DNA from: Escherichia phage saus132
Sequence record: NC_047884.1
Length of the DNA: 64,000 nt
Direction: 5' to 3' (one strand)
Shown: one piece after another, positions 27,471 to 40,706 of the stretch
Position numbering within the stretch: the first letter of the stretch is position 1
How the letters are laid out: the number at the start of each line of letters is the position of its first letter
Program-made: the position numbers and the translations under genes
The notes under the pieces: model-generated
The model's database searches: none
What the model saw: only the letters and a program-made list of their open reading frames with translations
What the model was told of the DNA's origin: nothing

Positions 27471-27473
27471 ATT

Positions 27474-27502
27474 TGCTTTCGAGCTAAAACTTAGGTATAA
27501 TT
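27474..27502 (+). promoter_or_regulatory. promoter
   Basis: -35 TTGCTT, 17 bp, -10 TATAAT. Confidence 0.6.
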
Positions 27503-27518
27503 GTACAAGGAGGGCTAA

Positions 27519-28205
27519 ATGGTACGAAGGAAGTTAGATAAAGACACTATCAATAAAGATTTAGAGCCTAGAAGAATTAAGCTAATAAGTGAGTATTCTG
27601 GAATCCTTAATAAAGGCACATTCATATGTAGTGTAGGTCATACATGGGAAGCTACTGTTAATAATGTAAGGAATAGCAAATCTGGCTGTCCAATATGCGC
27701 AGGTACTTTTAAACTTACTAAAGATTCGGTAAATGAAGGGTTACGTAGTAGGGGTATTACTCTTATTGGAGAGTATAAAAATAATGCTACTAAAACTCTT
27801 TTTGAATGTGAGCATGGGCATAGGTGGGAAGCCACAGTAGGCAATGTAAAGAATAAAAATTCTGGGTGTCCTGTGTGCGATACTGATTGGAATACCCCTG
27901 GTTTTATATACATTATGTGTAGTAGTATGGGAACTAAAATAGGAATTAGTATCTCTCCTGAAAGACGGTGGAAAGAGATAGTTAAAAGCTCCAATATACT
28001 AGATTTATATATTTTTGGTGTCTATTCAATAGATTCTGGTACCAAATCTAAAAGTAGGTCTATCGAGAAACAGACTCATGAATATTTTTCAGAATATAGA
28101 TTAAAGTATACAGGATTTGCTGGATGTACTGAATTCTTTGATATATCTCCCATAGCCGTAGAAAAGCACTTAATTAATAATGGGTGTATAAAGGTAGAAA
28201 AATAA
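27519..28205 (+). CDS. zinc-ribbon repeat protein with C-terminal T5orf172 (GIY-YIG-like) domain
   Basis: Two repeats CxxGHxWEATVxNVxNxxSGCPxC, then GFIYIMCSSMGTKIGIS. Confidence 0.5.
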   Translation: MVRRKLDKDTINKDLEPRRIKLISEYSGILNKGTFICSVGHTWEATVNNVRNSKSGCPICAGTFKLTKDSVNEGLRSRGITLIGEYKNNATKTLFECEHGHRWEATVGNVKNKNSGCPVCDTDWNTPGFIYIMCSSMGTKIGISISPERRWKEIVKSSNILDLYIFGVYSIDSGTKSKSRSIEKQTHEYFSEYRLKYTGFAGCTEFFDISPIAVEKHLINNGCIKVEK

Positions 28206-28214
28206 ATAAAGTAC

Positions 28215-28245
28215 TTGCTTATATTACTTTTATTTGATATTATAT
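28215..28245 (+). promoter_or_regulatory. promoter
   Basis: -35 TTGCTT, about 17 bp, AT-rich -10, conserved UTR-like sequence. Confidence 0.5.
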
Positions 28246-28270
28246 TATTATAAATTAGAGAGGAGGGTGT

Positions 28271-28630
28271 ATGAAATTAAAACCATTTATTGTTGTATCT
28301 AAACTAGGGCATTATCACGTAGGAGTAGATACAATTCAGGAAGCTATTTTTGCTGCTACAGGTGATTACTCATTACTAGAAGGTATTGGGTATCCTACAT
28401 TACTAGGAGACTTCGTAGAGCAAGAACTAGATATTACTGTCTATAATCCTATATATGAAGAACCTGAAGACTTAAAAGAGACTCTAGAATTTGTATACTG
28501 GAACCACTTACAAGTATTTAATGTTACCTCTAATGGCACAGAGGATTTCTCTTCTGCTATTAAGTATTATATTAAACAAGTTTACTATGATTATTTCTAT
28601 GAGGATATTGGAGCGGAGCTAAAAGTATGA
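28271..28630 (+). CDS. hypothetical protein (119 aa)
   Basis: ORF with SD GAGGAGGG. Confidence 0.5.
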   Translation: MKLKPFIVVSKLGHYHVGVDTIQEAIFAATGDYSLLEGIGYPTLLGDFVEQELDITVYNPIYEEPEDLKETLEFVYWNHLQVFNVTSNGTEDFSSAIKYYIKQVYYDYFYEDIGAELKV

Positions 28631-28830
28631 AAAACGTAAAACATCTTAAGTATCGCTTAATTTACAACGGACGTATGGAAATAGAAGATCTAGCTCAGCT
28701 AGCGATCAATTCAGATGAAGTTACAGTTCGTGCTTTGTCCATCGAGAAGCTGCGTGCTTCTTACGAAAATCGTATTATGGAATTAGAGGAGAAACTTTAT
28801 GGCATTCTCGAGTCAGAAGCTACCAGGTGA
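28627..28830 (+). CDS. hypothetical protein (67 aa)
   Basis: ORF overlapping upstream stop. Confidence 0.4.
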   Translation: MKNVKHLKYRLIYNGRMEIEDLAQLAINSDEVTVRALSIEKLRASYENRIMELEEKLYGILESEATR

Positions 28831-29044
28831 AAATGTTAGTCTTATTGATCTGAATAAGCTCAATCAAGAGTTTCAGGGAGTTTTAATGAAGCACTGGGAA
28901 ACTGGTTATAAGGATGGTGTTGAATCCTGTGCTACTATGCTAGAAGTTCTTGCTGATAACCTAGTGGAGAAAGGCAATAAAGAATTAGCTGAGCTGTTAG
29001 ACAGTATTGGGCAAAACTTTAGAGAACAGGTGAAAAATGCGTAG
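28799..29044 (+). CDS. hypothetical protein (81 aa)
   Basis: ORF. Confidence 0.4.
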   Translation: MAFSSQKLPGENVSLIDLNKLNQEFQGVLMKHWETGYKDGVESCATMLEVLADNLVEKGNKELAELLDSIGQNFREQVKNA

Positions 29045-29888
29045 ACTAATCGTTGTTAGTGGTGCAGGTTTGAGTGTAGATAGTGGTGTTCGTGCTTTCC
29101 GTACTGATACTGCTAGTGGGAAATCCTTGTGGGATGAGTACGATCTAGAGGAAGTATGTAGCTTGCCTAACTTTGAAGCTGGCTTCCGTCGCTTCTGTGG
29201 TGAAGATGATCCTAACTACTTCAGTGCTCGTTTCCCTGGCATTGATGAAGATGGTAACGATCTGTATCTCAAGACTCATGAGTTCTACAACATGCGTCGT
29301 CAGGAATTACAGACTGTTGAGCCTAACATTGCCCATCTGCGAATTGCAGAATGGTTCCAGCGTTATGGTGCGGATAGCGTGAAGAACTTCACTACTAACG
29401 TTGATGACCTTCTGGAGCGCGCTGGTATCCCTCGTGATGAAATCATCCATGCTCACGGATACTTGAAAGAGGTGATCTATCGTCGGGGTCGCAATCAAAT
29501 CATCGAAGATGTTGGATACACTGCAATTGTTCCTGAAGATTACGAATGGGTAAAACCAAACGTGGTGTTCTTTGGTGAAACAGCTCCGTGGTACATGGGT
29601 CAGATCAACCTGTTTGATACGCTTACTAGCAATGATATGGTTATTGTGGTGGGTTGTAGCAACCAAGTTATCAACTTCAACTGGGAATTATTCCCTGCTG
29701 TATGTCGTGGAACTAAGATGATGGTTGTTAACCCTCAAGTTCGTTATGATGAACAGCTTGAGTATGAGAAACGTGGTGTTACTGTATGGCGGGCTGGAGC
29801 TGCCGAAGTTTTTGGTAACAAGAATTTCATTGGTCAAGTAGAAGCCTTTATGGAAGGAACTATTTATGCACCGCAAGAGCATGTGTGA
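29037..29888 (+). CDS. SIR2-like NAD-binding protein (283 aa)
   Basis: VVSGAGLSVDSGVRAFR NAD-binding motif and IHAHGY catalytic His region; no clear CxxC...CxxC zinc ribbon. Confidence 0.6.
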   Translation: MRRLIVVSGAGLSVDSGVRAFRTDTASGKSLWDEYDLEEVCSLPNFEAGFRRFCGEDDPNYFSARFPGIDEDGNDLYLKTHEFYNMRRQELQTVEPNIAHLRIAEWFQRYGADSVKNFTTNVDDLLERAGIPRDEIIHAHGYLKEVIYRRGRNQIIEDVGYTAIVPEDYEWVKPNVVFFGETAPWYMGQINLFDTLTSNDMVIVVGCSNQVINFNWELFPAVCRGTKMMVVNPQVRYDEQLEYEKRGVTVWRAGAAEVFGNKNFIGQVEAFMEGTIYAPQEHV

Positions 29889-30048
29889 TCTTTTAGTATG
29901 GCCGGACGGTAGTTGGTGCTACCGTTTCGAATTTGCTACCGATGACTTCTCATGGAAGAGTGATGATTTCTGCGTTATCTATGAGGATACAGCAGAATGG
30001 AAAGAGTTCCTTATTAAGGAGGGAGAATATGGTGAAGAAGATTTTTAA
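29866..30048 (+). CDS. hypothetical protein (60 aa)
   Basis: ORF. Confidence 0.35.
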   Translation: MHRKSMCDLLVWPDGSWCYRFEFATDDFSWKSDDFCVIYEDTAEWKEFLIKEGEYGEEDF

Positions 30049-30214
30049 GGGTATCTGGAAGGGTCTAGTATGGTTTGTCAACCTAATTGGTATGATTACC
30101 ATTTATTCTCTGTTCCTATCTGTTATGTGGGGTAAAGGTGAGCTGAAGGTTCCGGTTCCTTTTACTGATGAAGTTAAAGTCTGGACGTGGGATGCTACTG
30201 GTGGAAATAAGTAA
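30029..30214 (+). CDS. small membrane protein (61 aa)
   Basis: ATG after SD AAGGAGGGAG; hydrophobic core. Confidence 0.4.
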   Translation: MVKKIFKGIWKGLVWFVNLIGMITIYSLFLSVMWGKGELKVPVPFTDEVKVWTWDATGGNK

Positions 30215-30707
30215 TACTCCTGTGATTTTCCTGGATATTGATGGGGTACTCAATTCGAGCATCTCTCACCATCATGCTCTAGACAGTGAAAAGCTGTTCT
30301 TTGGCAGTGATTGGGTTTATAAGCCATTACTCCAGGTTTTTCAGAACTTTCTTAAACCCTCCCCAATAATGATTGTTGGGGTCTCTTCATGGTTTTCTGT
30401 ACGAAATGAAATGGAGAACGTTCAGATTATGACCGGACTCGGTTTGATCGATCGTTTCCTTGGTACAACAGATTTTACTGGAGGTGGTTTATATCGGGGT
30501 AATTCTGTTTTACGTTTCGTCGAAAAACATAAGCTCAAGCATTGGTGTGTCTTAGACGATGCTGGTGCTATGATGTATCAATTTCCTACTGTTATTGTAA
30601 ATGGCAGGACTGGAGTAAACCTTCAAGATTTAAATGCTATAAGCTATATGCTGGAATTTAGTCCAGATCTTGAAATGTGTAAGGCTCTTCAGAAACTTAA
30701 GGTATAA
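30168..30707 (+). CDS. HAD-superfamily phosphatase-like protein
   Basis: N-terminal VIFLDIDGVLN (DxDG) motif; start may be ATG at 30192. Confidence 0.5.
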   Translation: MKLKSGRGMLLVEISNTPVIFLDIDGVLNSSISHHHALDSEKLFFGSDWVYKPLLQVFQNFLKPSPIMIVGVSSWFSVRNEMENVQIMTGLGLIDRFLGTTDFTGGGLYRGNSVLRFVEKHKLKHWCVLDDAGAMMYQFPTVIVNGRTGVNLQDLNAISYMLEFSPDLEMCKALQKLKV

Positions 30708-30709
30708 GC

Positions 30710-31138
30710 ATGTTCAATAATATTTTCATGAAAGAGGTAAATCCTATGCTCCTCAACTTCTGGCGTTCTCTCCCTAATGGTATGTATAATGAAACCATCA
30801 ATCTGCTTAAGATTTGGTGTGAGAATAATGATATCTTCTTATCCTTTAAAGGCCCACTAGAGGAAGCTCCATGTATTGGAGTTAGTGTGGATTTAGGTGA
30901 GGGAGTAGAAGAGATTGTAGACTGGAAAGAACTCGATGAAATGGGTCTGGTTTTTGCCTTAAATCATAAGCTGTTTATGCCTGCAAATCACCGTCTTATT
31001 GTAAATTATCGCACTGGTGAAGCTCCTGCTTTCCAGGTAAATGAACGTGAGGGCTGGTCATATTCGCCCGAGGAAGTAAATGAGGGGATTCAGAAACTTC
31101 GTCGTTTCGGGTATATGATCCCAGGTTTAACTGCTTAA
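30710..31138 (+). CDS. hypothetical protein (142 aa), paralog of next gene
   Basis: Shares FALNxxxF...ETGExP and LxRxGxxxPGL motifs with 31148-31543. Confidence 0.5.
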   Translation: MFNNIFMKEVNPMLLNFWRSLPNGMYNETINLLKIWCENNDIFLSFKGPLEEAPCIGVSVDLGEGVEEIVDWKELDEMGLVFALNHKLFMPANHRLIVNYRTGEAPAFQVNEREGWSYSPEEVNEGIQKLRRFGYMIPGLTA

Positions 31139-31147
31139 GGAGGCAGA

Positions 31148-31543
31148 ATGGAACAAGTATTTTGGCGTCAGATAGATCCTAGTTTGGTAGAGCGTGCTGA
31201 GGGGCTCCTTGCACGTTGGTTGGGGGTTGACAAGGTTAGTGTAACATTTCCGTTTACTTCTGTAACAGACCCTAGTGTAGGTGTCTTTGTGGACGAAGAT
31301 GAAGATGATGGTTGGGAAGCTGACTGGAATGAATTGTCCAGTATGGGCTTGATTGTTGCCCTCAACTTCTCTATATTCCATCCACGTGGCTTAGCCATTA
31401 CACGTGACCCCGAAACTGGTGAATCCCCTTATCTTTTGCAAGTAGAAGATGATATTTGGGAGTACACCGAAGATATTCTCGAAGAAGCTAAAGGTCAATT
31501 AAATCGCATTGGGATCTATGTTCCAGGCCTAAATGATGATTGA
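31148..31543 (+). CDS. hypothetical protein (131 aa), paralog of previous gene
   Basis: Tandem paralog; SD AAGGAGG. Confidence 0.5.
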   Translation: MEQVFWRQIDPSLVERAEGLLARWLGVDKVSVTFPFTSVTDPSVGVFVDEDEDDGWEADWNELSSMGLIVALNFSIFHPRGLAITRDPETGESPYLLQVEDDIWEYTEDILEEAKGQLNRIGIYVPGLNDD

Positions 31544-31634
31544 TTTTCATTAGTCCAATCCTGATTACCGAGTCATTTTGGCTCGGTTTTCTCTGTGCTC
31601 AAAGACACTGATAGCACCTTCGGAAAAATTTTAC

Positions 31635-31663
31635 TTGCAGGATGCTCAAAATCTTGATATAAT
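31635..31663 (+). promoter_or_regulatory. promoter with conserved UTR-like sequence but no ORF for about 500 nt
   Basis: -35 TTGCAG, 17 bp, -10 TATAAT. Confidence 0.55.
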
Positions 31664-32159
31664 ATTTATATTGAATTGAGAGACATTAGTAAAAATTGAT
31701 TTTGCTAATTTTTCTTGTTTACAATCCGCAATACGGAACAGTTAGGCTGCCCCATTAAGGGTTGTTTTAACTATTACTAGTGTTTATACTGCATTAGTTA
31801 ATTATCAATTAAGTGATCTGCGTACCCTGAATTCGGAAAGGTAAATCCAAACCGTGCATATTTAGCTCGTTATATAGGCAGAGCTTTATATGGGGGTGCG
31901 AACGAAAAGAGCAGCGAATGGTGACACGTCCAGTAGCCACCTACCAATAGGATAGTGAGGGCAATCAGAATCGGCTTAGCGGCCAATGACCTAGGTTCTG
32001 ATCTGGATAAGAGTTAAGAGAGCGCAGCACTGAGGTATGATAACTTATTCATACTGCTTGATGATGATTAATGTTTGTGTAAATGGTAGTAATAGTTGTT
32101 CTATTCTTTTGAATAGTCCTAAAGAAAGATATCCGAATAACCAACATAGGAGTATTGTT

Positions 32160-34949
32160 GTGTTCTCAATCCTACAAGGTCACGCAGGATTTTCCAGAGA
32201 TAAAGCCACTGGCATCTGGAAAGAGATCAAAGTGGAAGACTACACCTTTGCAAAGCGATTCTCTAAAGAGCATCCAGAAGGTAAACCAGCTTCCATGCCC
32301 TTCAAATTTGATGTACTTGAAGAACTTGACCCGCAAAACCTTGCTGAAATGTTACCTATCATGCGTCGTCTTACCAAAGACCCGCATATTGTAGCTATTC
32401 GTGGTAAATGTTTAGCTCCAAAAGATAATGTGCGTCGTACCAGAGGAAACTTTAATGTATCCAATCCTAGTCATATTATTGCTATGGACGTGGATGGTAT
32501 TGTAGATACTGGTGGCTATGACAAGTTTAATCTTGTCGGCATGGCACGTCATATTATTAAGATGTTGAATAGTATTAGTGAGGATATGTTTCCTCTTGAT
32601 GCAGGGTTTATTGCTCATGCATCGTCTTCGGCTGGCTTAAAACCAGGTATCCGAATGCACTTAATGCTAGAATCTAATGTCAAGGTAACGCAGGGGCAAT
32701 TAAAATTCCTATTTACATCCATCAATGACAGTAGTAAGCAAAAGTATGGCTTTGATATTGCTGACTTAGCTTATTATTCTTCTGTTCAGCTTCACTATTT
32801 CGCAGATCCCTTATTTGATGATGGTATAGTCGATCCGTTTAAAGCGGAGAATAAACCACGTCTTGTGTATGTTAAGGGTTCGAAAGTGAATCTACCCAAT
32901 AACCTAGTTGACTTTGAAACAACTAGAGGTGAGTTTAAAGAAGAATTCTACTCCTTACTTGACCAAATTAAAGGCAAGAAGGCTGCATCTGATAAAGTGG
33001 AAGAAACCATCAGCGAACTAGAAGAAGCTGAGGATGGGGTGTACCTGCGTATTATCCCAAAACTTTATCACAGAGCGTTAGAAGATGGTGTTGACTTTAC
33101 GTGGTTAGAACGTGAGATTAAACCAGCTTTATCTGAGTATATTGCGACTAAAGATAATAGTCGTAATATTCAAGATTACTTTAATAACGGTCGTAAGCAG
33201 GCTCTCAAAGCCTTTGTAAATAACTCCAAACGTGAGATTCCACCAAACTTAAAAGGTGTACCATTAAAACGTCTAGACACAGATTCTCCACCAGAAGTTC
33301 CATACCTGAAAATTAACATTGTACCACCAAAAGGACATTTAACATTTGTTAAGGCAAGTCTTGGTACGGGTAAAACTACAGCAGTAACTAAGTGGCTAGA
33401 TGCAGGTGTTCTTCCAGGGAACTTTATTGCAATCACAAATACTAGGGCACTTGTATCTTCTAACGCGAAGAAATTCGGTGCTGGCCAGTATGATAAGTCA
33501 GTTGATATGCTGAACTTCAAACGTGGTGCTATTGATCGTATGTCTTCAACTATTCACTCTATCCATAAGTTCAAGAGCTTTGTGGGTCAGATTGATACGA
33601 TCTTTATTGATGAATGTGATGCAGTAATGAACGATCTGTTATTCGCTCCGGTTGTTAAAAACCGTCGTGAATGTATTCAGGTTCTTCGTGATATTCTTAT
33701 TACTGCAAAAACGGTGATCTTATCTGATGGGGATATCAGTGCAGAAACGATTGAAGCCTATGGTTCTTTGATTGATTTTGATAAACCGGTTGCGTTCTAT
33801 AATCATCACCGTAAAATGCTGGCAAAAGCTCATGCTTATGAATTCCCTGACGAATCCAGTATTTGGGTTGCACTTCAAACATCTCTAGAGATGGGTGAGA
33901 AGTCAATCCTAGTATCTGACTGTGGACCAGATGAACTGAATGAAAAGGGAATGGCATTACGTCGTAATACGGGTGCGTTAGTTAAAGAAATTCACTCAAA
34001 CTCTACGTCTGATGTAGATATCCGTCGTATTCTGGATTATACAACTAATGAGCTAATTGATCAACAGATTGATTGTTTGTTATGTAGTCCATCTGTAACG
34101 AGTGGTGTTGACTTTAACTATTTTGATAACGTATTCGTAATCACTAGAACCTCAAACCAAGCGCCAAACATGCGTTTTCAAGCAATCAGGCGCGACCGTG
34201 GTGCTCAGAACATTTATTATTTTATTGATAAATCTACGAGTGGATTTTCTGCGGGTTCCGAGCAATATAATATTGACGAAGGTTGGATTGAGTTAGCCCA
34301 ACAACTGTACGCACGTCGCCGTGAGCTGGAATCTAGAAACTATACCAGTACTTTGCGTTATTATCTTCTCGATCAAGGTGCAACTATCGATATTTTCAGC
34401 GAAAGCTGGGGAACTATCGAAGGTGCAGGCAAAGAGTATATAGAAGAGCGAATCAAAGCTATTTTGCACTCAACTCCTGAATATTGCGCACCACGTCATG
34501 CAGACGCCTATGAAGCCAAGTTACTTCTGGTTCGCTATTATCATCTGGATTCTATTAAAGATGTAATAGTGGAACACGTTGAACAGTATATTAAGGATAA
34601 ACCAAACGATAGAGCTGCATTCTTCCATAAGATGCACGACATGTTCTGGGAAGATATTAAAAAGTGTTCAAACGTAACAATCAAACCGTTTATCGAAGCT
34701 CTTAAGAATAAGAAGAAGGATTTCTTCCTTAAGACAGGTCAGAGCGCTAACCCAAAATATGCTCGTATGTATCTTGGCATGATGGGTATCGGTAAAGATC
34801 TGGATACGGAAAAGATTGTGGACTGGTACAGAACTTACTGTAAGATCGAATGTATGCCGATTCCAGTTAAGTTTATGACAGATGAAGAACGTCAGATGCA
34901 TGAGGAAGCTCTTGCTGAATTGGGGGCTAGAAATGACAGCGAAGAATAA
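32160..34949 (+). CDS. putative replication helicase / origin-binding protein (about 930 aa)
   Basis: Walker A FVKASLGTGKTT and Walker B IFIDECDA; start set at GTG 32160 after SD AGGAG (track start ATG 32037 has no SD). Confidence 0.55.
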   Translation: MFSILQGHAGFSRDKATGIWKEIKVEDYTFAKRFSKEHPEGKPASMPFKFDVLEELDPQNLAEMLPIMRRLTKDPHIVAIRGKCLAPKDNVRRTRGNFNVSNPSHIIAMDVDGIVDTGGYDKFNLVGMARHIIKMLNSISEDMFPLDAGFIAHASSSAGLKPGIRMHLMLESNVKVTQGQLKFLFTSINDSSKQKYGFDIADLAYYSSVQLHYFADPLFDDGIVDPFKAENKPRLVYVKGSKVNLPNNLVDFETTRGEFKEEFYSLLDQIKGKKAASDKVEETISELEEAEDGVYLRIIPKLYHRALEDGVDFTWLEREIKPALSEYIATKDNSRNIQDYFNNGRKQALKAFVNNSKREIPPNLKGVPLKRLDTDSPPEVPYLKINIVPPKGHLTFVKASLGTGKTTAVTKWLDAGVLPGNFIAITNTRALVSSNAKKFGAGQYDKSVDMLNFKRGAIDRMSSTIHSIHKFKSFVGQIDTIFIDECDAVMNDLLFAPVVKNRRECIQVLRDILITAKTVILSDGDISAETIEAYGSLIDFDKPVAFYNHHRKMLAKAHAYEFPDESSIWVALQTSLEMGEKSILVSDCGPDELNEKGMALRRNTGALVKEIHSNSTSDVDIRRILDYTTNELIDQQIDCLLCSPSVTSGVDFNYFDNVFVITRTSNQAPNMRFQAIRRDRGAQNIYYFIDKSTSGFSAGSEQYNIDEGWIELAQQLYARRRELESRNYTSTLRYYLLDQGATIDIFSESWGTIEGAGKEYIEERIKAILHSTPEYCAPRHADAYEAKLLLVRYYHLDSIKDVIVEHVEQYIKDKPNDRAAFFHKMHDMFWEDIKKCSNVTIKPFIEALKNKKKDFFLKTGQSANPKYARMYLGMMGIGKDLDTEKIVDWYRTYCKIECMPIPVKFMTDEERQMHEEALAELGARNDSEE

Positions 34950-35166
34950 AAAGTGGGAAACAAGGAAGTTTCCCGTAAAAGAACGTAAAACTTCTGTTTA
35001 CGATACTGCGGAGAAACTATGTAGGGTTGTACCACCTCGTCTCGCGGGCATCCCTAACGTCTCCATATGGTTACTTAAACAACGGAAGACTCGTGTGTCT
35101 CTTCGCATTGGCTTTGAGTTAGATAAAGTCTATGCTGAACTTGCTTCTTTGCTCAAAGAATCGTAA
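34932..35166 (+). CDS. hypothetical basic protein (78 aa)
   Basis: ORF overlapping helicase stop. Confidence 0.35.
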
Positions 35167-35174
35167 AAATTTAT

Positions 35175-35203
35175 TTGCTTTCAGAAAAATTTTTCTGTAT
35201 AAT
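35175..35203 (+). promoter_or_regulatory. promoter
   Basis: -35 TTGCTT, 17 bp, -10 TATAAT, conserved UTR and SD. Confidence 0.65.
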
Positions 35204-35234
35204 AGATTCATAAATTTGAGAGAGGAGTTTAAAT

Positions 35235-35939
35235 ATGGCTGGTTCTCGTAGAAAGAAACTTATCCATGAAATCCCTGATGAAACCTTTAAAAAGGTTATT
35301 GAACATCTAGAGAATGGTGGTACTAAGAAAGCAGCATGTGAAATGCTCGGCGTTTCTTCTAACCCAACTATGGAACGAATGATCGAGGAATGGAGAGATC
35401 GTCAGGTTCAAGTTGCGGAAATGAAAAAGAAGAAGCGCGGAACACTGATTGAAGGTGTTGAGCTTGCAAACGTAATTGAACAGTATCTTTCTGGTGATTC
35501 TTTTGAAGAAATCGCTGATCGTAATTATCGTTCTGTAGCGATGATTAAATCTGTTCTAGAACGTTACGGTGCTCTGCTTCGTTTAAATGATACTGTTGAT
35601 CCATTGAATCCTCCATTGATTCCTGATGATGCAATGGCAGAGGAATTTGAAGTTGGTGAACTTGTTTGGGTTCCTGGCTATCAGTGTATTGGTGAAATCA
35701 AGAAAGCAATGACTAACCCAGTTGGTTGCTATCGTGTTTGGTTGTTATCAGAAGGTAAACAACAGAACGTTCACTATATGCACTACGAATTAGCTTCTGT
35801 TAAACATCTGGAAAAGCTGGGAGTTGATGTTAAAGCTCTTGGCTTTAAATGGAGCCGTGAAGAAGTTATCACGTTGGTTAATGAAGCTGTTAAAGCTGCA
35901 CTGAAACTCGATAAAGAGAAAGGAAAACGCCGTGAGTAA
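35235..35939 (+). CDS. putative HTH DNA-binding protein (234 aa)
   Basis: N-terminal HTH-like GGTKKAACEMLGVSSNPTMERMIE; promoter cassette upstream. Confidence 0.5.
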   Translation: MAGSRRKKLIHEIPDETFKKVIEHLENGGTKKAACEMLGVSSNPTMERMIEEWRDRQVQVAEMKKKKRGTLIEGVELANVIEQYLSGDSFEEIADRNYRSVAMIKSVLERYGALLRLNDTVDPLNPPLIPDDAMAEEFEVGELVWVPGYQCIGEIKKAMTNPVGCYRVWLLSEGKQQNVHYMHYELASVKHLEKLGVDVKALGFKWSREEVITLVNEAVKAALKLDKEKGKRRE

Positions 35940-36186
35940 ACTAACTGATCTGTTAAAAGCTGGAGACGTAAAATATCTCCAGCGAGATAGCTGGGAAAAT
36001 AATACTTATTCTACCACTATCATCAAAGTAGATGTTGATAATAACAACATTATAGAATTTACTTGGTGGTGGTCTAAAGATGGGCGCACTAAACCCACGC
36101 TAGACGATGCATCGTGGAAAACCACTGAGCTAACTCTAGACGAAGCCCTAGCTGACGATTGGGAGATCGTTGAACTAGATGTGTAG
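35932..36186 (+). CDS. hypothetical protein (84 aa)
   Basis: ORF. Confidence 0.45.
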   Translation: MSKLTDLLKAGDVKYLQRDSWENNTYSTTIIKVDVDNNNIIEFTWWWSKDGRTKPTLDDASWKTTELTLDEALADDWEIVELDV

Positions 36187-36206
36187 CAGTTACTGAAAAA
36201 TTTCAG

Positions 36207-36235
36207 TTGCTCAATCCTATAATTCTTGATATAAT
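36207..36235 (+). promoter_or_regulatory. promoter
   Basis: -35 TTGCTC, 17 bp, -10 TATAAT. Confidence 0.55.
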
Positions 36236-36293
36236 ATTCTCATAGTTTGAAAGAACTATTCTGTTTAATTCTTAATTAAGGAAATTCAAAAAT

Positions 36294-36704
36294 ATGACTA
36301 CTCCAACTCAGTGGACTGATGAACTGTTCGAAAAAATGTCTTCCGATTACGTTGCTCGTATGGAGCAATTCCCAGAAGATGAGCGTCCGGGCGTTAGCAT
36401 GGAAATTGTTAGCGAAATTGCTCAGGAAAATGGTGTAACTCCGAACGGTTTCCGTATGAAGCTGACCAAAGCAGGTCTGTATATCAAGAAAGCTGCTGGC
36501 TCTACTTCTAAATCAAGCGCATCTACTGGAGAAAAAGCTTCTGGTGGTTCTCGTACTTCCAAAGCTCAGGCTCACTCCGATCTTCGCTCTGCATTCTCTG
36601 ATGCTGGCTTAGCACCGGACTTCCTGGACGACGCAATCATCGACAAGCTGACTGGTAAAGCAGCTGCTCATCTGGCAGAAGCTATCAGAGCTATCACTAA
36701 GTAA
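36294..36704 (+). CDS. hypothetical protein (136 aa) with one HTH-like module; host-like codon usage
   Basis: Module EIAQENGVTPNGFRMKLTKAGLYIK; codons rich in CTG/CGT/GCT/GGT. Confidence 0.5.
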   Translation: MTTPTQWTDELFEKMSSDYVARMEQFPEDERPGVSMEIVSEIAQENGVTPNGFRMKLTKAGLYIKKAAGSTSKSSASTGEKASGGSRTSKAQAHSDLRSAFSDAGLAPDFLDDAIIDKLTGKAAAHLAEAIRAITK

Positions 36705-36740
36705 TTCTTAGATAAATCCACCAACACAAGGAATACAGTT

Positions 36741-37037
36741 ATGAATAAAGCTGAAATTATTGCTCAATGCGAAAAATTTGGTGAGTTTTATCTTCATTAC
36801 GAAAAACTTCGTCAGAAAGGAACCACGTATCTTCAGGGTACGATGGAATTTGATCCAGCTCAGGATAAATACCTGGCTGAGCGTATTAAACGTGAGCGCA
36901 TCCGTAAGCCGAAAGAGGATGAAATCCTCGTTTTCTCTCGTACTAACGATAGCTTCCGTTTCATTCCTGTTGCGAAAGTTCGCCGTGTGACGAGCCTCCA
37001 GTCAGAGTTAGATCGTGCTTCTCCAGTAGGCCGATAA
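36741..37037 (+). CDS. hypothetical protein (98 aa)
   Basis: ORF followed by terminator. Confidence 0.5.
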   Translation: MNKAEIIAQCEKFGEFYLHYEKLRQKGTTYLQGTMEFDPAQDKYLAERIKRERIRKPKEDEILVFSRTNDSFRFIPVAKVRRVTSLQSELDRASPVGR

Positions 37038-37045
37038 GAAACCAA

Positions 37046-37070
37046 TTAGCCCCTATATGGGGCTTTTTGT
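37046..37070 (+). terminator. rho-independent terminator
   Basis: Hairpin AGCCCC-TATAT-GGGGCT then TTTTTG. Confidence 0.65.
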
Positions 37071-37087
37071 GTATTTGGGATATGTAA

Positions 37088-37396
37088 ATGAGCGATCAGG
37101 TAAATCAAAACTATGAAGGACACGTTGACGACCAGTCCATCATGCTTTGGGAGAAGGAGGGGGAACAAGTAAGACTAACCGTATCTGAATTTCGTGGGAA
37201 TCTATACATGGGAATTCGTTACTGGCTCCAAGATATTACTGGAGAGTGGTTTCCAACGAAATCCGGCTTCTCTTTTCCTTATACCCTAGAAACTACATCA
37301 CAGCTATTCTACGCTTTTACGCAAATCCTCAGTGAATCCGAGGTCTTGCATGAAGTACAGAAACGAGCTGAAGAACTCAAAGCCAAGAATGCCTAG
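37088..37396 (+). CDS. hypothetical protein (102 aa)
   Basis: ORF. Confidence 0.45.
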   Translation: MSDQVNQNYEGHVDDQSIMLWEKEGEQVRLTVSEFRGNLYMGIRYWLQDITGEWFPTKSGFSFPYTLETTSQLFYAFTQILSESEVLHEVQKRAEELKAKNA

Positions 37397-37423
37397 TTCT
37401 TGGCTTTTTCTTTATAAATGTAC

Positions 37424-37452
37424 TTGCTTTCATCCCTATTTTCTTATATAAT
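37424..37452 (+). promoter_or_regulatory. promoter
   Basis: -35 TTGCTT, 17 bp, -10 TATAAT, conserved UTR. Confidence 0.6.
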
Positions 37453-37481
37453 AGTTATATAAATTAATGAGAGGGGTGAAT

Positions 37482-37754
37482 ATGAAAAAGATAAAAATAA
37501 GTCCACTTAAACCTTTACCGTACATAGGACAGTCTTTAGTTCTTTCCTGGGAAGAAAAGCTCAATGGAGAGAAGGTACGTATGGTTCGACAGGGGTATAA
37601 ACTTATATCTCTCGCTTACGAAGCAAACACATTAGTTGCTGATATTTACTCTCCAATAACTCAAAGAGTGGGAAGTACTACCTATCTTTGCTTATGTAAG
37701 AACTTTACATGGCAGGGGGATACTATTCAGCCTAAAGCATATGAGGTACAGTAA
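37482..37754 (+). CDS. hypothetical protein (90 aa)
   Basis: ATG after SD GAGAGGGG. Confidence 0.45.
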   Translation: MKKIKISPLKPLPYIGQSLVLSWEEKLNGEKVRMVRQGYKLISLAYEANTLVADIYSPITQRVGSTTYLCLCKNFTWQGDTIQPKAYEVQ

Positions 37755-37949
37755 ATGGCAATAACACTTCCAAAGATTCAAGCAAAACTTAATTTGCTCT
37801 CCATAGCAAGAATCAATTACCAGGATAGTATCGGCACTCCAAACCAGAAAGCGTACAAAGATGCGTGGTTGAAAGAAGCTGCTGATTTAGCTGGTATGGC
37901 TGCGCAGTATAGTAAAGAACTCAAAATGGAAATCGCAGATGATGAATAA
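37755..37949 (+). CDS. hypothetical protein (64 aa)
   Basis: ATG directly after upstream TAA, SD GAGGT 9 nt upstream. Confidence 0.4.
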   Translation: MAITLPKIQAKLNLLSIARINYQDSIGTPNQKAYKDAWLKEAADLAGMAAQYSKELKMEIADDE

Positions 37950-38913
37950 TGTAAAAGACTTTATTAAACGTTGTCAAGAAGCGTACTACCAGGGAATGAG
38001 TCTTATTTCCGATGAAGAATATGATCGTCTGATTAAAAGATTCCCACTAGAGGAAGAAATCGGACCGAAAGGTGATATCCCTCATTTGTATCGTATGTAT
38101 TCTTTGCAGAAAGTCTATTACGATCGTGGTGATAAAGCTCCATTCAACCCACTTGGTCAGGTTGAAACTGATAAGTTAGATGGTTGTGCGATTTCTCTAT
38201 TATATATTAATGGTGAATTTATTCAAGCGTTAACTCGTGGTAACGGTATTCTAGGGAATGATGTAACGCATAATGTTAAAATGCTGAACATCCCTAAAAC
38301 TATCTCCCAAAAAGTTCCAACTCAAATCACTGGTGAAGTTCTCATCACTAAAGAAGTAGAGAACAAACGTAACTATGCTTCCGGTGCTATTAACTTGAAA
38401 GATAGTGATGATTTCATGCAACGTATTGGTGAAGGTGGTTTAATCTTCGTTGCATATGGTATCCAGTGTTCAGCGGAAACAGTCGGTATTACAGAAGCCT
38501 ATTTAAAAGATATGCTTTGGCTAGAGAATGAGAACTTCTTGACAGTTGTTAATGTTCGTTCCTTCTTTAAGTGGATTCCGACGGATGGTAAAGTTGTTCG
38601 TATTAATGATAACAACAAATTCTTCCGTGAAGGTTGGACTAATAAATTTCCTCGCGGTGCATTTGCTATTAAAGAGGATGAAGAAGGCGAAATTACCACA
38701 CTTGTTAAAGTTGAATGGCAAGTAGGGGCTTCTGGTAAAGTAACTCCAGTTGGTTATTTCGAACCGGTGATTATTGATGATGCCACAATCGTTAAAGCAA
38801 CTCTTAATAACGTTGATTATATTAACGCTCTCGATTTAGAGATCGGTTGCCAGATTCGAGTGATTCGTGCTGGTGGTGTAATCCCTTGTATAGTAGAGCG
38901 AGTATACGACTAA
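37939..38913 (+). CDS. NAD-dependent DNA ligase, adenylation-domain part
   Basis: KxDG adenylation motif (VETDKLDGCAIS). Confidence 0.75.
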   Translation: MMNNVKDFIKRCQEAYYQGMSLISDEEYDRLIKRFPLEEEIGPKGDIPHLYRMYSLQKVYYDRGDKAPFNPLGQVETDKLDGCAISLLYINGEFIQALTRGNGILGNDVTHNVKMLNIPKTISQKVPTQITGEVLITKEVENKRNYASGAINLKDSDDFMQRIGEGGLIFVAYGIQCSAETVGITEAYLKDMLWLENENFLTVVNVRSFFKWIPTDGKVVRINDNNKFFREGWTNKFPRGAFAIKEDEEGEITTLVKVEWQVGASGKVTPVGYFEPVIIDDATIVKATLNNVDYINALDLEIGCQIRVIRAGGVIPCIVERVYD

Positions 38914-38963
38914 TTCGTAACCCTTTGCTACCCGTTTACCATGTCGGAATTATAAAGTGGTTA

Positions 38964-38992
38964 TTGACATTTTCGCCGCTTAGGTATATACT
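38964..38992 (+). promoter_or_regulatory. promoter in the gap between the two ligase ORFs
   Basis: -35 TTGACA, 17 bp, -10 TATACT. Confidence 0.55.
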
Positions 38993-39056
38993 ATTATCAT
39001 TCAGTTGAGGGATAGAAAGTTATGGCGAGGGTAAGCAAAGTTAGTTAAAATTGTAG

Positions 39057-39085
39057 TTGCTAAATGCTTAAATACTTGCTATAAT
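39057..39085 (+). promoter_or_regulatory. promoter immediately upstream of ligase C-terminal ORF
   Basis: -35 TTGCTA, 17 bp, -10 TATAAT, conserved UTR. Confidence 0.6.
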
Positions 39086-39115
39086 ATTTATATAAATTGA
39101 TAAGGAAGAAATTTG

Positions 39116-39895
39116 ATGAAAATCGAAATTCCAACACAATGTCCCTCTTGTGGTTCTAAGCTAGATCTTGTCAACGGGCAATTATTCTGTAGGAATAAGT
39201 CCAACTGTCCAGCACAATCAAGTAAGTTAATCGAGAACTTCTGCACAAAAATGAAGTTAAAGGGCTTTGGCCCGAAAACTATTGAGAAGCTGGAACTGAC
39301 TAAGATCTCAGAACTGTTTTACCTGACCGAAGAAGATTTGGTCGGAGCTGTGGGTAGCAAGGTTGCCGCTAAGTTGATTAGCGAGTTAAATACTAAGGTT
39401 CGCGGAGACATTGACTTTGGTTCGGTTCTCGGTTCTTTAGGAATTCCTCTTATTGGAGAGGTTGCAGCAAAGAAACTGTCCCAAAATTGCACTAGCTTCC
39501 ACGATGTGAAGGCTGACGGCAAGGCTGGAGAAAATTACAAAACCTGGCTAAATTCCCCACAAGGCAAGGATGTTATTGAATTACCATGGAAATTCTCAAC
39601 TGGTATTCGAGGTACTAAAGCTGATATCATCATTACGGATGATTTAGTTGCCCAGCCAAATGGAATCACGATCTGTATTACCGGATCTTTGCAAGATTTT
39701 GCAAATCGAACGGATGCAACAAACTATTTAGAAAGTCTAGGATATACGGTTAAGAAATCCGTTACCAAAGACGTCAAATACCTAATCTGTGAGGATGAAT
39801 CAAAACGTTCTTCCTCATCTTATAAGAAAGCCGAAACGAATGGGATAGAAATCCTGTCGATTAAAGAACTATTGGAGAAAAATAATAATGTCTAA
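39116..39895 (+). CDS. NAD-dependent DNA ligase, C-terminal part (zinc finger, HhH, BRCT-like)
   Basis: Cys4 site CPSCGSKL...CRNKSNCP; own promoter and SD upstream. Confidence 0.7.
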   Translation: MKIEIPTQCPSCGSKLDLVNGQLFCRNKSNCPAQSSKLIENFCTKMKLKGFGPKTIEKLELTKISELFYLTEEDLVGAVGSKVAAKLISELNTKVRGDIDFGSVLGSLGIPLIGEVAAKKLSQNCTSFHDVKADGKAGENYKTWLNSPQGKDVIELPWKFSTGIRGTKADIIITDDLVAQPNGITICITGSLQDFANRTDATNYLESLGYTVKKSVTKDVKYLICEDESKRSSSSYKKAETNGIEILSIKELLEKNNNV

Positions 39896-40655
39896 ACTGA
39901 ACTGGAACGTAGAAGGTGTAACCGAGTCTCTGAAAGCAAAAGCCACTGCTCTGGGTGTTGCTGTAATCTCTCAAGAACAAGTAGCTGCTATCGCTGCTGA
40001 ACTGGCTACCGAGACTGGTAAAGACGTTACCGCTCGCTCTGTTGGCTCTAAGCTGCGTAAAGAAGGTTTCGAAGTACAGAAAGCTAACGAAGTACAGAAA
40101 TCCCCGTGGACTCCTGAGCAGGAAGCTGAACTAGTTGATTTCCTGAACGCTCATGCTGGTCAGTATACTTACGCTGAAATCGCTGCTGCTGTAGCTGGTG
40201 GTCAGTTCGGTGCTAAGCAGGTACAGGGTAAGATCCTGAGTCTGGAAATGACTGCTTCTGTTAAGCCAACTGAAAAAGCTGCTGCTGTTCGTTCCTTCAC
40301 TCCTGACGAAGAAACTGATTTCGTTAATCAGGTTGTTGCTGGTGCTACTATTGAAGCTATCGCTGCTCACTTCGGTCGTAATATTAAGCAGATCCGTGGT
40401 AAAGCTCTGAGCCTGCTTCGTGAAGGTCGTATCGCTGCTATGCCGGTACAGGAAACATCAAGTGCTAAGACTCGTGAAGATCTGTTAGAAGGTCTGGATC
40501 TGGCTTCCATGACTGTTGCAGAAGTTGCTGAGAAAACTGGTAAGTCTGAGCGCGGTGTTAAATCTATGCTGTCTCGTCGTGGTCTGGTTGCTAAGGACTA
40601 TGATGGTGCTGCTAAGCGTGCTAAACTGGATGCAAAAGCTGCGGCTGCTGAATAA
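39888..40655 (+). CDS. protein with four tandem HTH-like modules (255 aa); host-like codon usage
   Basis: Repeated modules (ELATETGKDVTARSVGSKLRKEGFEVQK, EAIAAHFGRNIKQIRGKALSLLREG, EVAEKTGKSERGVKSMLSRRGLVAKD); terminator downstream. Confidence 0.5.
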   Translation: MSKLNWNVEGVTESLKAKATALGVAVISQEQVAAIAAELATETGKDVTARSVGSKLRKEGFEVQKANEVQKSPWTPEQEAELVDFLNAHAGQYTYAEIAAAVAGGQFGAKQVQGKILSLEMTASVKPTEKAAAVRSFTPDEETDFVNQVVAGATIEAIAAHFGRNIKQIRGKALSLLREGRIAAMPVQETSSAKTREDLLEGLDLASMTVAEVAEKTGKSERGVKSMLSRRGLVAKDYDGAAKRAKLDAKAAAAE

Positions 40656-40671
40656 TCTGGTAAATTAAACC

Positions 40672-40706
40672 TAAGGGGAGGGGGCTATGCTCCTTCCCCT
40701 TTTTGC
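40672..40706 (+). terminator. rho-independent terminator
   Basis: G/C-rich imperfect hairpin AAGGGGAGG...CCTTCCCC then TTTTTG. Confidence 0.55.

What the first reader, a model, noticed from the sequence alone, without database searches (positions are those of the whole stretch)
37939..39895. NAD-dependent DNA ligase encoded as two ORFs separated by a 200-bp promoter-bearing spacer
Seen in sequence: the adenylation-domain ORF (KxDG motif) ends at 38913; the zinc-finger/HhH/BRCT part starts at 39116; the gap contains two sigma70-type promoters and no intron-like structure or endonuclease ORF. As recalled, T5 ligase is also annotated as two subunits. Inference: a stable split gene whose halves must associate, possibly the footprint of an excised mobile element.
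Basis: partly seen in the sequence, partly recalled or inferred. Interest (0 to 1): 0.4.

Follow-up and report, generated by a model that had tools for sequence, protein, structure and literature searches.

The report
T5-type two-subunit NAD-dependent DNA ligase
This is the already-described split DNA ligase of T5-like phages: two genes, ligA and ligB, make one enzyme and are separated by a spacer holding two named T5 promoters, so it is real but not new.

Summary
ORF 37939-38913 encodes domain Ia, the nucleotidyltransferase domain (KxDG, K79) and the OB fold of an NAD-dependent ligase. ORF 39116-39895 encodes the Zn finger, HhH and BRCT domains. The 202-bp spacer has stops in all frames, two sigma70 promoters, no Rfam match and no significant RNA fold.

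It is not new. The window is 100% identical to published T5-like Epseptimavirus genomes. T5's RefSeq record annotates ligA, promoters P-K28b and P-K28a, ligB and D5 in the same arrangement. [quoted passage not shown] PDB 9hu3/9i5i hold a homologous two-chain complex from a Providencia T5-like phage.

Comparison of about 90 loci adds detail.
- The break always falls in the OB-to-Zn linker.
- A near-consensus promoter lies just upstream of ligB in 39 of 46 distinct lineages.
- The gap content varies from 56 nt to 1.5 kb and includes GIY-YIG, T5orf172, thioredoxin, ThyA/ThyX and DprA-like genes.
- Syntenic relatives with an unsplit ligase of about 560 aa exist.
- Both halves are under strong purifying selection.

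The "excised mobile element" origin is neither shown nor excluded. Interest is low.

The parts
37379..37407 (+). Intrinsic-terminator-like hairpin that ends the upstream transcription unit
   Evidence: 12-bp stem followed by a T-run. T5 annotates a terminator and a promoter in the equivalent upstream region.
37424..37452 (+). Early-type promoter (TTGCTT-17-TATAAT) heading the unit orf95-orf64-ligA
   Evidence: a member of the 23-copy TTGCT-N18/19-TATAAT family. T5 annotates a promoter directly upstream of ligA.
37939..38913 (+). [quoted passage not shown] GenBank start is 37942. Its start overlaps the stop of the upstream 64-aa ORF.
   Evidence: PF01653 scores 82.9 bits and PF03120 77.1 bits. 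PDB 9hu3_A matches at E 1.6e-106. dN/dS against T5 is 0.049.
38914..39115 (+). 202-bp non-coding spacer at the OB/Zn-finger linker position. It has stops in all frames, no terminator, no Rfam family and no significant fold.
   Evidence: It is 197/202 identical to T5, with all differences at 38915-38943.
38964..38992 (+). Promoter P1 (TTGACA-17-TATACT), homologous to T5 promoter P-K28b (feature transfers to window 38944-39018)
   Evidence: 11/12 match; the -35 TTGAC and most of the -10 are invariant in 8 divergent spacers. T5 RefSeq annotation.
39057..39085 (+). Promoter P2 (TTGCTA-17-TATAAT with an extended -10 TG, an upstream A-tract and a downstream ATAAATTGA), homologous to T5 promoter P-K28a (feature transfers to window 39037-39111)
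39102..39108 (+). Shine-Dalgarno-like AAGGAAG, 7-9 nt before the ligB ATG
   Evidence: Read directly from the sequence.
39116..39895 (+). ligB: NAD-dependent DNA ligase subunit B (C4 Zn finger at C9/C12/C25/C31, HhH region, BRCT)
   Evidence: PDB 9hu3_B matches at E 9.2e-80. Residue 3 aligns to E. coli LigA (2owo) residue 402. dN/dS against T5 is 0.098.
39888..40655 (+). D5 gene (DNA-binding protein). Its start overlaps the ligB stop by 8 nt (ATGTCTAA), so it is co-transcribed with ligB and probably translationally coupled to it.
40673..40701 (+). Strong intrinsic-terminator-like hairpin that closes the ligB-D5 unit
   Evidence: 13-bp stem with 8 GC pairs, followed by a T-run.

Best explanation
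This is the T5-type two-subunit NAD+-dependent DNA ligase. LigA (324 aa: Ia, nucleotidyltransferase, OB) carries the active-site lysine and reacts with NAD+ to form the enzyme-adenylate. LigB (259 aa: Zn finger, HhH, BRCT) supplies the DNA-binding clamp modules needed for the steps after adenylation. The two polypeptides assemble non-covalently into the equivalent of a compact single-chain LigA. The break lies exactly in the OB-to-Zn-finger linker, and no residues are lost. The spacer is a transcription-unit boundary rather than an intron or a remnant. It holds two tandem host-sigma70 promoters, the homologues of T5 P-K28b and P-K28a. These start the ligB-D5 unit, which ends at the terminator at 40673-40701. 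ligA is the last gene of the preceding unit, which starts at the promoter at 37424-37452. No terminator follows ligA, so ligB and D5 probably receive transcription from all three promoters. Shown here: the domain content, the split point, conservation of the split and of the promoters, purifying selection on both halves, and homology to a deposited two-chain complex. Inferred: physical association and activity of this particular pair, promoter activity in this phage, and read-through from ligA into ligB.
For: Identity and annotation. [quoted passage not shown] T5 RefSeq has ligA, P-K28b, P-K28a, ligB and D5 in the same order with the same 202-bp spacer.

Literature. The split T5 ligase is cited as a discovery of the 2005 T5 genome paper (PMC1684257). 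The T5 subunits are listed in PMC3632103.

Solved homologue. PDB 9hu3/9i5i contain both chains. Chain B is 100% identical to LigB of Providencia phage PR1/PSTCR5.

Split point. LigA residue 321 aligns to 2owo residue 390, and LigB residue 3 aligns to 2owo residue 402. The linker from GxxIP to the first Cys is 16 aa (8+8), against 17-29 aa in fused relatives.

Need for both halves. LigN truncated to Ia-NTase-OB self-adenylates but does not ligate.

Conservation. 0 of 86 loci are fused, with the same gene order and the same break. dN/dS is 0.049 and 0.098.

Promoters. Both are conserved across 8 genera-level spacers. 39/46 distinct lineages have a >=10/12 promoter 23-41 nt upstream of ligB, against 5.4% of shuffles, and 29/46 have >=11/12 against 0.43%. 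Window 38944-39115 is invariant against T5 although dS in the flanking genes is 0.23-0.66. P2 is one of 23 family members in the window.
Against: Nothing contradicts the explanation, but there are limits. No experiment on this exact protein pair is available here. I could not find the paper behind 9hu3, so its interface and activity are not known to me. Promoter activity is taken from T5's annotation and from conservation, not measured for this phage. The absence of a terminator after ligA rests on a simple scan, and the annotators of Providencia phage PR1 placed a terminator in their spacer. The 46 lineages in the promoter survey are related, so they are not independent samples.
Confidence: 0.92

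Rival explanations
1. The split is the scar of a mobile element. A free-standing homing-endonuclease gene inserted into a once-continuous ligase gene at the OB/Zn linker and was later lost, leaving the spacer. This would resemble the 'genes in pieces' nrdA of Aeromonas phage Aeh1, as I recall it.
For: Unsplit ligases of about 560 aa exist at the same syntenic locus in distant T5-like relatives (L090 and L091). The gap holds GIY-YIG-superfamily ORFs in several lineages: a GIY-YIG gene in phage SP3 (PF01541, 26 bits against a cutoff of 22.6), and T5orf172-domain ORFs in marine contigs. In SP3 the adjacent 190 bp of ligA falls to 68-77% nucleotide identity with mostly conserved amino acids, which looks like a co-conversion or immunity patch.
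Against: The window's spacer contains no endonuclease remnant. The SP3 gene lies upstream of both intact promoters and occurs in only 3 of 50,697 phage records, so it is a recent arrival in a gene that was already split. Many lineages have only a 56-64 nt gap consisting of one promoter. The universal companion of the split is the promoter, not an endonuclease. Intergenic gaps next to conserved genes are generic landing sites for such elements, so their presence says little about origin.
Confidence: 0.15
2. The split persists because separate expression is useful. LigB, together with D5, is made at a different level or time from LigA. This would tune ligase activity, or LigB may have a second, ligase-independent DNA-binding role.
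For: ligB heads its own unit with two strong promoters, and no terminator was detected after ligA, so ligB mRNA should be at least as abundant as ligA mRNA. The promoter upstream of ligB is conserved across very divergent lineages. In the fused relatives, D5 follows the ligase directly with no promoter in between.
Against: There are no expression data. The promoter could be selected for D5 alone, with the split a neutral by-product tolerated because the break falls at a domain boundary. The fused relatives show that a single chain works in the same module.
Confidence: 0.25
3. One half is a decaying or non-functional remnant of a broken gene, and the phage relies on the host LigA.
For: None beyond the bare fact of the interruption.
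Against: Both ORFs are intact in all 86 loci, down to 35-45% identity. dN/dS is 0.05 and 0.10. The catalytic KxDG and the four Zn-finger Cys are conserved. A homologous pair has been solved as a complex.
Confidence: 0.01
4. The two ORFs are joined into one protein by RNA splicing (intron), protein splicing (split intein), or frameshifting or read-through.
For: None.
Against: There are multiple stops in all three frames of the spacer. There is no Rfam family at E<=1, and the fold z-score is -0.9. The conserved elements of the spacer are promoter hexamers, not structure. 324 + 259 = 583 aa is about the length of fused relatives (555-578 aa) and the linker is complete, so there is no room for intein halves. 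The PDB entries contain two separate chains.
Confidence: 0.01

Closest known systems
Bacteriophage T5 ligA (T5.116) / ligB (T5.117) with promoters P-K28b and P-K28a (NC_005859)
   Same: Same gene order (ligA, two promoters, ligB, D5). Same 202-bp spacer, 197/202 identical. LigA and LigB are about 95-96% identical in amino acids. Same break point.
   Different: T5 lacks the two small ORFs (95 and 64 aa) that precede ligA in this window, so its ligA follows its promoter directly. Otherwise there is no material difference.
PDB 9hu3 / 9i5i: 'DNA ligase (NAD(+))' + 'DNA ligase subunit B' (chain B = Providencia phage PR1/PSTCR5 LigB)
   Same: Homologous over the full length of both chains (E 1.6e-106 and 9.2e-80). 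Same two-chain architecture and the same split between the OB fold and the Zn finger.
   Different: Roughly 60% identity by eye from the printed alignments. It comes from a different genus (Priunavirus). Its spacer was annotated with a terminator plus one promoter. I could not read its primary publication.
Single-chain bacterial LigA (E. coli 2owo, Thermus filiformis 1v9p)
   Same: Same domain order: Ia, NTase, OB, Zn, HhH, BRCT. The KxDG lysine, the four-Cys finger and the BRCT domain are all present.
   Different: One polypeptide of 670 aa against two totalling 583 aa. The phage enzyme is more compact, with a shorter Ia/NTase and HhH region, and it belongs to a distinct phage-type clade (98.5% bootstrap).
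Compact single-chain phage ligases of 555-578 aa (e.g. P0033 on L090, P0106 on L091)
   Same: Same compact family. Same syntenic replication module (D3-like, ligase, D5-like, DnaB, DnaG). 37-51% identity.
   Different: Continuous ORF with a 17-29 aa linker where the T5-type genes are interrupted. No promoter-bearing gap, and D5 follows directly.
'Genes in pieces' made by homing-endonuclease insertion (nrdA split by mobE in Aeromonas phage Aeh1; recalled from memory, not checked here)
   Same: An essential nucleic-acid-metabolism enzyme of a lytic phage is encoded as two ORFs that reassemble. Endonuclease genes are found in the gap in some relatives (SP3 and the marine contigs).
   Different: In this window and in most relatives the gap has no endonuclease gene. 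The conserved gap element is a promoter. The split is ancient and widespread rather than confined to one phage.

Membership tests
NAD+-dependent DNA ligase (LigA family) | Nucleotidyltransferase domain with the motif I KxDG active-site lysine | tested here: met
   KLDG at K79. PF01653 scores 82.9 bits against a cutoff of 27.
NAD+-dependent DNA ligase (LigA family) | N-terminal domain Ia that confers NAD+ specificity (conserved Tyr / Asp-x-x-Tyr-Asp residues) | tested here: inconclusive
   The sequence AYYQG...ISDEEYDRL aligns to T. filiformis YRYYV...ISDAEYDRL, but the local score is weak (4.8 bits). The close homologue 9hu3_A is deposited as 'DNA ligase (NAD(+))'. Cofactor use was not measured.
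NAD+-dependent DNA ligase (LigA family) | OB-fold domain after the NTase domain | tested here: met
   PF03120 scores 77.1 bits against a cutoff of 32.9, at residues 253-322. Residues 215-321 align to 2owo 284-390.
NAD+-dependent DNA ligase (LigA family) | C4 zinc finger, HhH region and BRCT domain | tested here: met
   Cys 9, 12, 25 and 31 are invariant in the LigB alignment. BRCT PF00533 scores 36.1 bits against 21.3. The HhH Pfam hit is below threshold (21.6 against 27), but residues 3-122 align to the 2owo Zn/HhH region 402-529.
NAD+-dependent DNA ligase (LigA family) | All domains on a single polypeptide (canonical form) | tested here: not met
   Two ORFs in different frames, with a 202-bp spacer that has stops in all frames.
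T5-type split ligase (LigA + LigB subunits) | Two adjacent same-strand ORFs, A before B, broken at the OB/Zn-finger linker | tested here: met
T5-type split ligase (LigA + LigB subunits) | Full-length homology of both halves to the T5 / Providencia-phage subunits | tested here: met
   95-96% amino-acid identity to T5 (L020). E 1.6e-106 and 9.2e-80 to 9hu3 chains A and B.
T5-type split ligase (LigA + LigB subunits) | Physical association of the two chains and nick-sealing activity that depends on both | not testable with these tools
   Supported indirectly by the two-chain PDB entries for a homologue and by the LigN truncation result.
T5 early promoters (P-K28a / P-K28b) | Sigma70 -35/-10 hexamers with 17-nt spacing at the positions annotated in T5 | tested here: met
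   The region 38944-39115 is identical to T5. P2 shares the family's A-tract and downstream ATAAATTGA box.
T5 early promoters (P-K28a / P-K28b) | Transcription initiation by host RNA polymerase in vivo or in vitro | not testable with these tools
   T5 genes are transcribed by host sigma70 RNA polymerase (abstract of PMC7472727). The names in the T5 record imply earlier mapping, but I could not read that literature.
Gene split by a resident homing endonuclease ('genes in pieces') | Endonuclease ORF between the two halves | tested here: not met
   No such ORF in the window's spacer. It is present only in relatives: SP3 GIY-YIG and the marine T5orf172 ORFs.
Intron- or intein-interrupted gene | Conserved RNA structure, or intein residues at the junction | tested here: not met

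The most novel reading that the evidence does not exclude
The break in the ligase gene may be kept by selection because it uncouples the two halves. A strong promoter, conserved at this position from marine phages to T5, would make LigB and the D5 protein in a different amount or at a different time from the catalytic LigA. That would give the phage a way to set how much active ligase exists, for example to leave the characteristic single-strand nicks of T5 DNA unsealed. The gap would also serve as a recurrent landing pad for homing endonucleases and cargo genes, and the gene has switched between split and fused states more than once.
Probability: 0.12. Interest if true: 0.5.

Novelty: already known. 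Interest (0 to 1): 0.15.

Why it matters
For this window it matters little. The split ligase, its two subunits and both spacer promoters are already annotated in T5 and its relatives, and a homologous heterodimer structure is deposited. The comparative results may be of modest use to people working on ligase architecture or phage gene organisation. They show that LigA tolerates a break at the OB/Zn linker across a very large phage clade. They show that a promoter is the constant occupant of the break. And they show that natural fused and split versions exist in the same syntenic module, which offers a ready-made comparison for asking why an enzyme is kept in two pieces.

Tried and rejected
- Rfam scan of 38700-39300 at E<=1 found nothing.
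- RNA fold of the spacer gave z = -0.9, so no structure.
- Read-through or frameshift is rejected, because all three frames have stops.
- An intein is rejected: the summed length equals that of fused relatives and the linker is complete.
- The tiny ORF in the spacer (ATG at 39022, 8 codons) is not conserved in the Klebsiella, Providencia or Aeromonas spacers, so I treat it as chance.
- The ORFs overlapping the spacer (38847-39008 on + and 39088-39246 on -) have no Pfam domain.
- The 64-aa ORF that phage smaug has between ligA and ligB is unrelated to the 64-aa ORF upstream of ligA in the window.
- A tree built on the LigB region alone was star-like. A first bootstrap run timed out. The concatenated A+B tree supports the compact family (98.5%) but not the deep branching order, so the number and direction of split/fusion events stay open.
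- Promoter-like sites inside the fused genes (one 11/12 hit each) are at chance level for 1.7 kb.
- The simple promoter scan is not enriched in the 4-kb region as a whole.
- One search used a wrong spacing in the pattern and is void. One search is the corrected count.
- Literature searches for the paper behind 9hu3/9i5i and for the P-K28 promoters found nothing in the held library.
- The dN/dS value for ligA against phiR2-01 is unreliable because of an indel.
Full report

Yes. The window has an ORF at 37939..38913 (+, 324 aa) and another whose ATG is at 39116 and which ends at 39895 (+, 259 aa). They lie in different reading frames. The 202 bp between them (38914-39115) contain stop codons in all three frames.

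Pfam places the NAD-dependent ligase adenylation domain (82.9 bits) and the ligase OB fold (77.1 bits) in the first ORF. It places BRCT (36.1 bits) and a sub-threshold HhH hit in the second. The first ORF has KLDG at K79. The second starts with a four-cysteine finger at C9, C12, C25 and C31.

The consensus scan finds two strong sigma70-type sites in the spacer: TTGACA-17-TATACT at 38964-38992 and TTGCTA-17-TATAAT, with a TG, at 39057-39085. It finds no terminator between the ORFs. That scan is not enriched over shuffles for the 4-kb region as a whole, so these two sites have to be judged on other evidence (section 4).

The spacer has no Rfam match at E<=1 and no significant RNA fold (z = -0.9). 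The two small ORFs that overlap it have no Pfam domain.

**2. What is it, and is it known?**

The region is 100% identical to several published T5-like phages (Epseptimavirus chee130_1 and others). It matches 455 phage records at megablast level. [quoted passage not shown]

The RefSeq record of T5 itself has, in the same order and with the same 202-bp spacing:
- ligA (T5.116)
- 'promoter P-K 28b'
- 'promoter P-K 28a'
- ligB (T5.117)
- D5

Transferred to the window, P-K28b covers 38944-39018 and contains P1. P-K28a covers 39037-39111 and contains P2.

[quoted passage not shown] The PDB holds two entries, 9hu3 and 9i5i, each with a chain named 'DNA ligase (NAD(+))' (339 aa) and a chain named 'DNA ligase subunit B' (248 aa). 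These match the two ORFs over their full lengths at E 1.6e-106 and 9.2e-80. Chain B is 100% identical to the LigB of Providencia phages PR1 and PSTCR5, which are Demerecviridae. I could not find the paper that belongs to these entries.

**3. Where is the break, and do the halves need each other?**

LigA residues 215-321 align to E. coli LigA (2owo) 284-390. LigB residue 3 aligns to 2owo 402. The cut therefore falls in the short linker between the OB fold and the zinc finger.

From the conserved GxxIP near the end of the OB fold to the first finger cysteine there are 8 + 8 = 16 residues in the split enzyme. Single-chain relatives have 17-29. Nothing has been lost, and there is no room for intein halves.

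In the LigN study, a LigA-type enzyme cut down to Ia-NTase-OB formed the enzyme-adenylate as well as the full-length protein but was inactive in ligation. That is the expected behaviour of LigA without LigB.

Both halves are under strong purifying selection. dN/dS against T5 is 0.049 for ligA (dS 0.66) and 0.098 for ligB (dS 0.23).

**4. The spacer is a promoter cassette.**

P2 belongs to a family. The pattern TTGCT-N18/19-TATAAT occurs 23 times in the window, against 0.15 expected. The copies share an upstream A-tract and a downstream ATAAATTGA box. One copy at 37424-37452, just after a terminator-like hairpin at 37379-37407, heads the unit that ends with ligA.

I aligned the ligA-ligB spacers of this phage, T5, a further T5-like contig (L028), Yersinia phiR2-01, Klebsiella B01, Providencia PR1, Aeromonas Akh-2 and another Aeromonas-type contig. 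The following are invariant while the rest of the spacer diverges:
- the -35 TTGAC of P1
- most of P1's -10
- the TTGC of P2
- P2's TTG-n-TAT extended -10

Against T5, the spacer differs at only five positions, all within 38915-38943. So 38944-39115 is identical, although synonymous sites in the flanking genes have diverged by 0.23-0.66.

ligB overlaps D5 by 8 nt (ATGTCTAA). A strong terminator-like hairpin follows D5 at 40673-40701.

The layout is therefore: promoter (37424), orf95, orf64, ligA, P1, P2, ligB, D5, terminator. No terminator was detected after ligA. That ligB and D5 are transcribed from all three promoters is my inference.

**5. How widespread is the split, and what sits in the gap?**

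Using an alignment of four LigB proteins I fetched 80 viral-contig loci and analysed them with six GenBank loci. None of the 86 has a fused ligase. Wherever both halves are on the contig they are separate same-strand ORFs, A before B, with A hits reaching the end of the query and B hits starting at residues 1-6.

The distance from the ligA stop to the ligB start varies:
- 56-64 nt in many marine contigs that are only 35-45% identical
- 73-98 nt in other marine contigs
- 178-202 nt in Aeromonas and T5-like phages
- 358 nt in phage smaug
- 443-1491 nt elsewhere

The longer gaps carry varied cargo:
- a 64-aa ORF (smaug)
- a DprA-like gene plus small ORFs (Vibrio Thalassavirus)
- thioredoxin plus T5orf172-domain ORFs (marine contigs)
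- thymidylate synthase ThyA (L059) or ThyX (L082)
- a 218-aa GIY-YIG endonuclease in Salmonella phage SP3 (PF01541, 26 bits against a cutoff of 22.6)

The constant feature is a promoter. In 39 of 46 distinct upstream regions there is a >=10/12 match to TTGACA-17-TATAAT ending 23-41 nt before the ligB start. In 29 of 46 the match is >=11/12. Shuffles give 5.4% and 0.43%. In the 56-64 nt gaps the TGA stop of ligA lies inside the -35 hexamer, tcTTGACt. These lineages are related, so the counts are not independent samples. Even so, the promoter survives where the rest of the gap is unalignable.

**6. The mobile-element idea.**

I found no HNH gene there, but there is a GIY-YIG gene in SP3 and one other phage, in 3 of 50,697 records.

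It sits immediately after ligA and upstream of both promoters. From window position 38938 onward the right flank is 98-100% identical to the window. The last ~190 bp of ligA drop to 68-77% nucleotide identity with the protein largely conserved. That is the kind of divergent patch seen next to homing-endonuclease genes. It suggests the element targets the 3' end of ligA. I infer this; it is not shown.

This is a recent insertion into an existing gap. It does not show how the gap arose. The T5orf172-domain ORFs in marine lineages show that such genes visit this gap repeatedly. A mobile-element origin of the split therefore remains possible, but nothing in this window supports it.

**7. Fused relatives and history.**

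A search of 1.84 billion representative proteins with LigB gave 3988 hits at E<=0.001. The top 150 contain:
- about 97 clusters of standalone LigB-like proteins of 225-275 aa, which start 7-10 residues before the first finger cysteine in 82 of the 100 proteins in the 225-275 aa range
- about ten compact single-chain ligases of 555-578 aa
- ordinary bacterial-type LigA of 610-720 aa

Two of the compact single-chain genes were located:
- P0033 lies on a contig collinear with window genes from 35250 to 40226, six genes at 30-42% identity.
- P0106 lies in a module with ThyX, D3-like, PC4-like, D5-like, DnaB and DnaG genes.

So unsplit versions occupy the same locus in distant T5-like phages, with D5 directly downstream and no internal promoter gap.

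A neighbour-joining tree of concatenated A+B sequences supports the compact phage-type family against bacterial LigA (98.5% of 200 bootstraps). It does not resolve the order inside the family. Split-only monophyly has 0% support. P0106 nests among split marine lineages in 99% of replicates. At least two changes of state are needed, and their direction is open.

**8. Verdict.**

The feature is real, functional and ordinary for this phage family. It is the T5-type two-subunit NAD-dependent ligase, with the T5 promoters P-K28b and P-K28a in the inter-subunit spacer.

Its 'excised mobile element' suggestion is unsupported here but not excluded as the ancient origin.

The novelty class is 'already known' and interest is low. 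The comparative points in sections 5-7 may or may not be in the literature I could not reach.

Noticed in passing
window 489-39085 (23 sites; e.g. 489-517 on -, 36207-36235 on +, 37424-37452 on +): There is a 23-member promoter family, TTGCT-N18/19-TATAAT, against 0.15 expected. Members share an upstream A-tract and a downstream ATAAATTGA box. All copies from 489 to 25306 are on the - strand and all from 27473 to 39085 are on the + strand. This implies divergent early transcription from a switch point near 25.3-27.5 kb.
   Followed up: partly
window 37462-37949: The two small ORFs upstream of ligA (95 aa at 37467-37754 and 64 aa at 37755-37949) have no Pfam domain. They are absent from T5, where ligA follows its promoter directly, and 37462-37761 has no counterpart in phage SP3. 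This looks like a small-ORF indel hot spot.
   Followed up: partly
L032 4184-4840 (Salmonella phage SP3, MG387042 64007-64663): A 218-aa GIY-YIG endonuclease gene is inserted between ligA and the two promoters. It is annotated only as a hypothetical protein or as ligase. The adjacent 190 bp of ligA are 68-77% identical to the window, against about 90% elsewhere, with mostly synonymous changes. This suggests a homing element that targets the 3' end of ligA.
   Followed up: partly
L003 3426-3986, L035 4284-4844, L037 4211-4903 (Vibrio Thalassavirus-type phages): A DprA-like gene (phrog_768, E 2e-49) plus one or two small ORFs sit between ligA and ligB in Vibrio phages. Its function in this context is unknown.
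   Followed up: no
L054 3158-4127, L055 4322-4932, L059 3571-4929, L082 3460-4929 (marine viral contigs): In marine relatives the ligase gap carries thioredoxin, T5orf172-domain (GIY-YIG-superfamily) ORFs and a thymidylate synthase. The synthase is ThyA in one lineage and ThyX in another, so analogous enzymes were captured at the same site.
   Followed up: no
L043-L084, 56-64 nt gaps (e.g. L047 4929-4989): In the shortest gaps the TGA stop codon of ligA is part of the -35 hexamer (tcTTGACt) of a 11-12/12 consensus promoter. The end of the first subunit and the start of the next transcription unit overlap physically.
   Followed up: partly
L090 2151-3857 and L091 5001-6674: Distant T5-like phages carry an unsplit compact ligase of 557-568 aa at the syntenic locus. 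P0106 (on L091) groups with split marine lineages in 99% of bootstraps, so the gene has changed between split and fused states at least twice.
   Followed up: partly
window 39888-40655: The D5 protein has a near-threshold match to sigma70 region 4 (PF08281, 25.1 bits against a cutoff of 25.7, residues 204-230) and several weak HTH hits. This is compatible with its annotated role as a DNA-binding transcription factor.
   Followed up: no
window 37939-37949 and 39888-39895: Start and stop codons overlap at both ends of the ligase pair: orf64/ligA (ATGATGAATAA) and ligB/D5 (ATGTCTAA). This suggests translational coupling within each transcription unit but not across the ligA-ligB gap.
   Followed up: no
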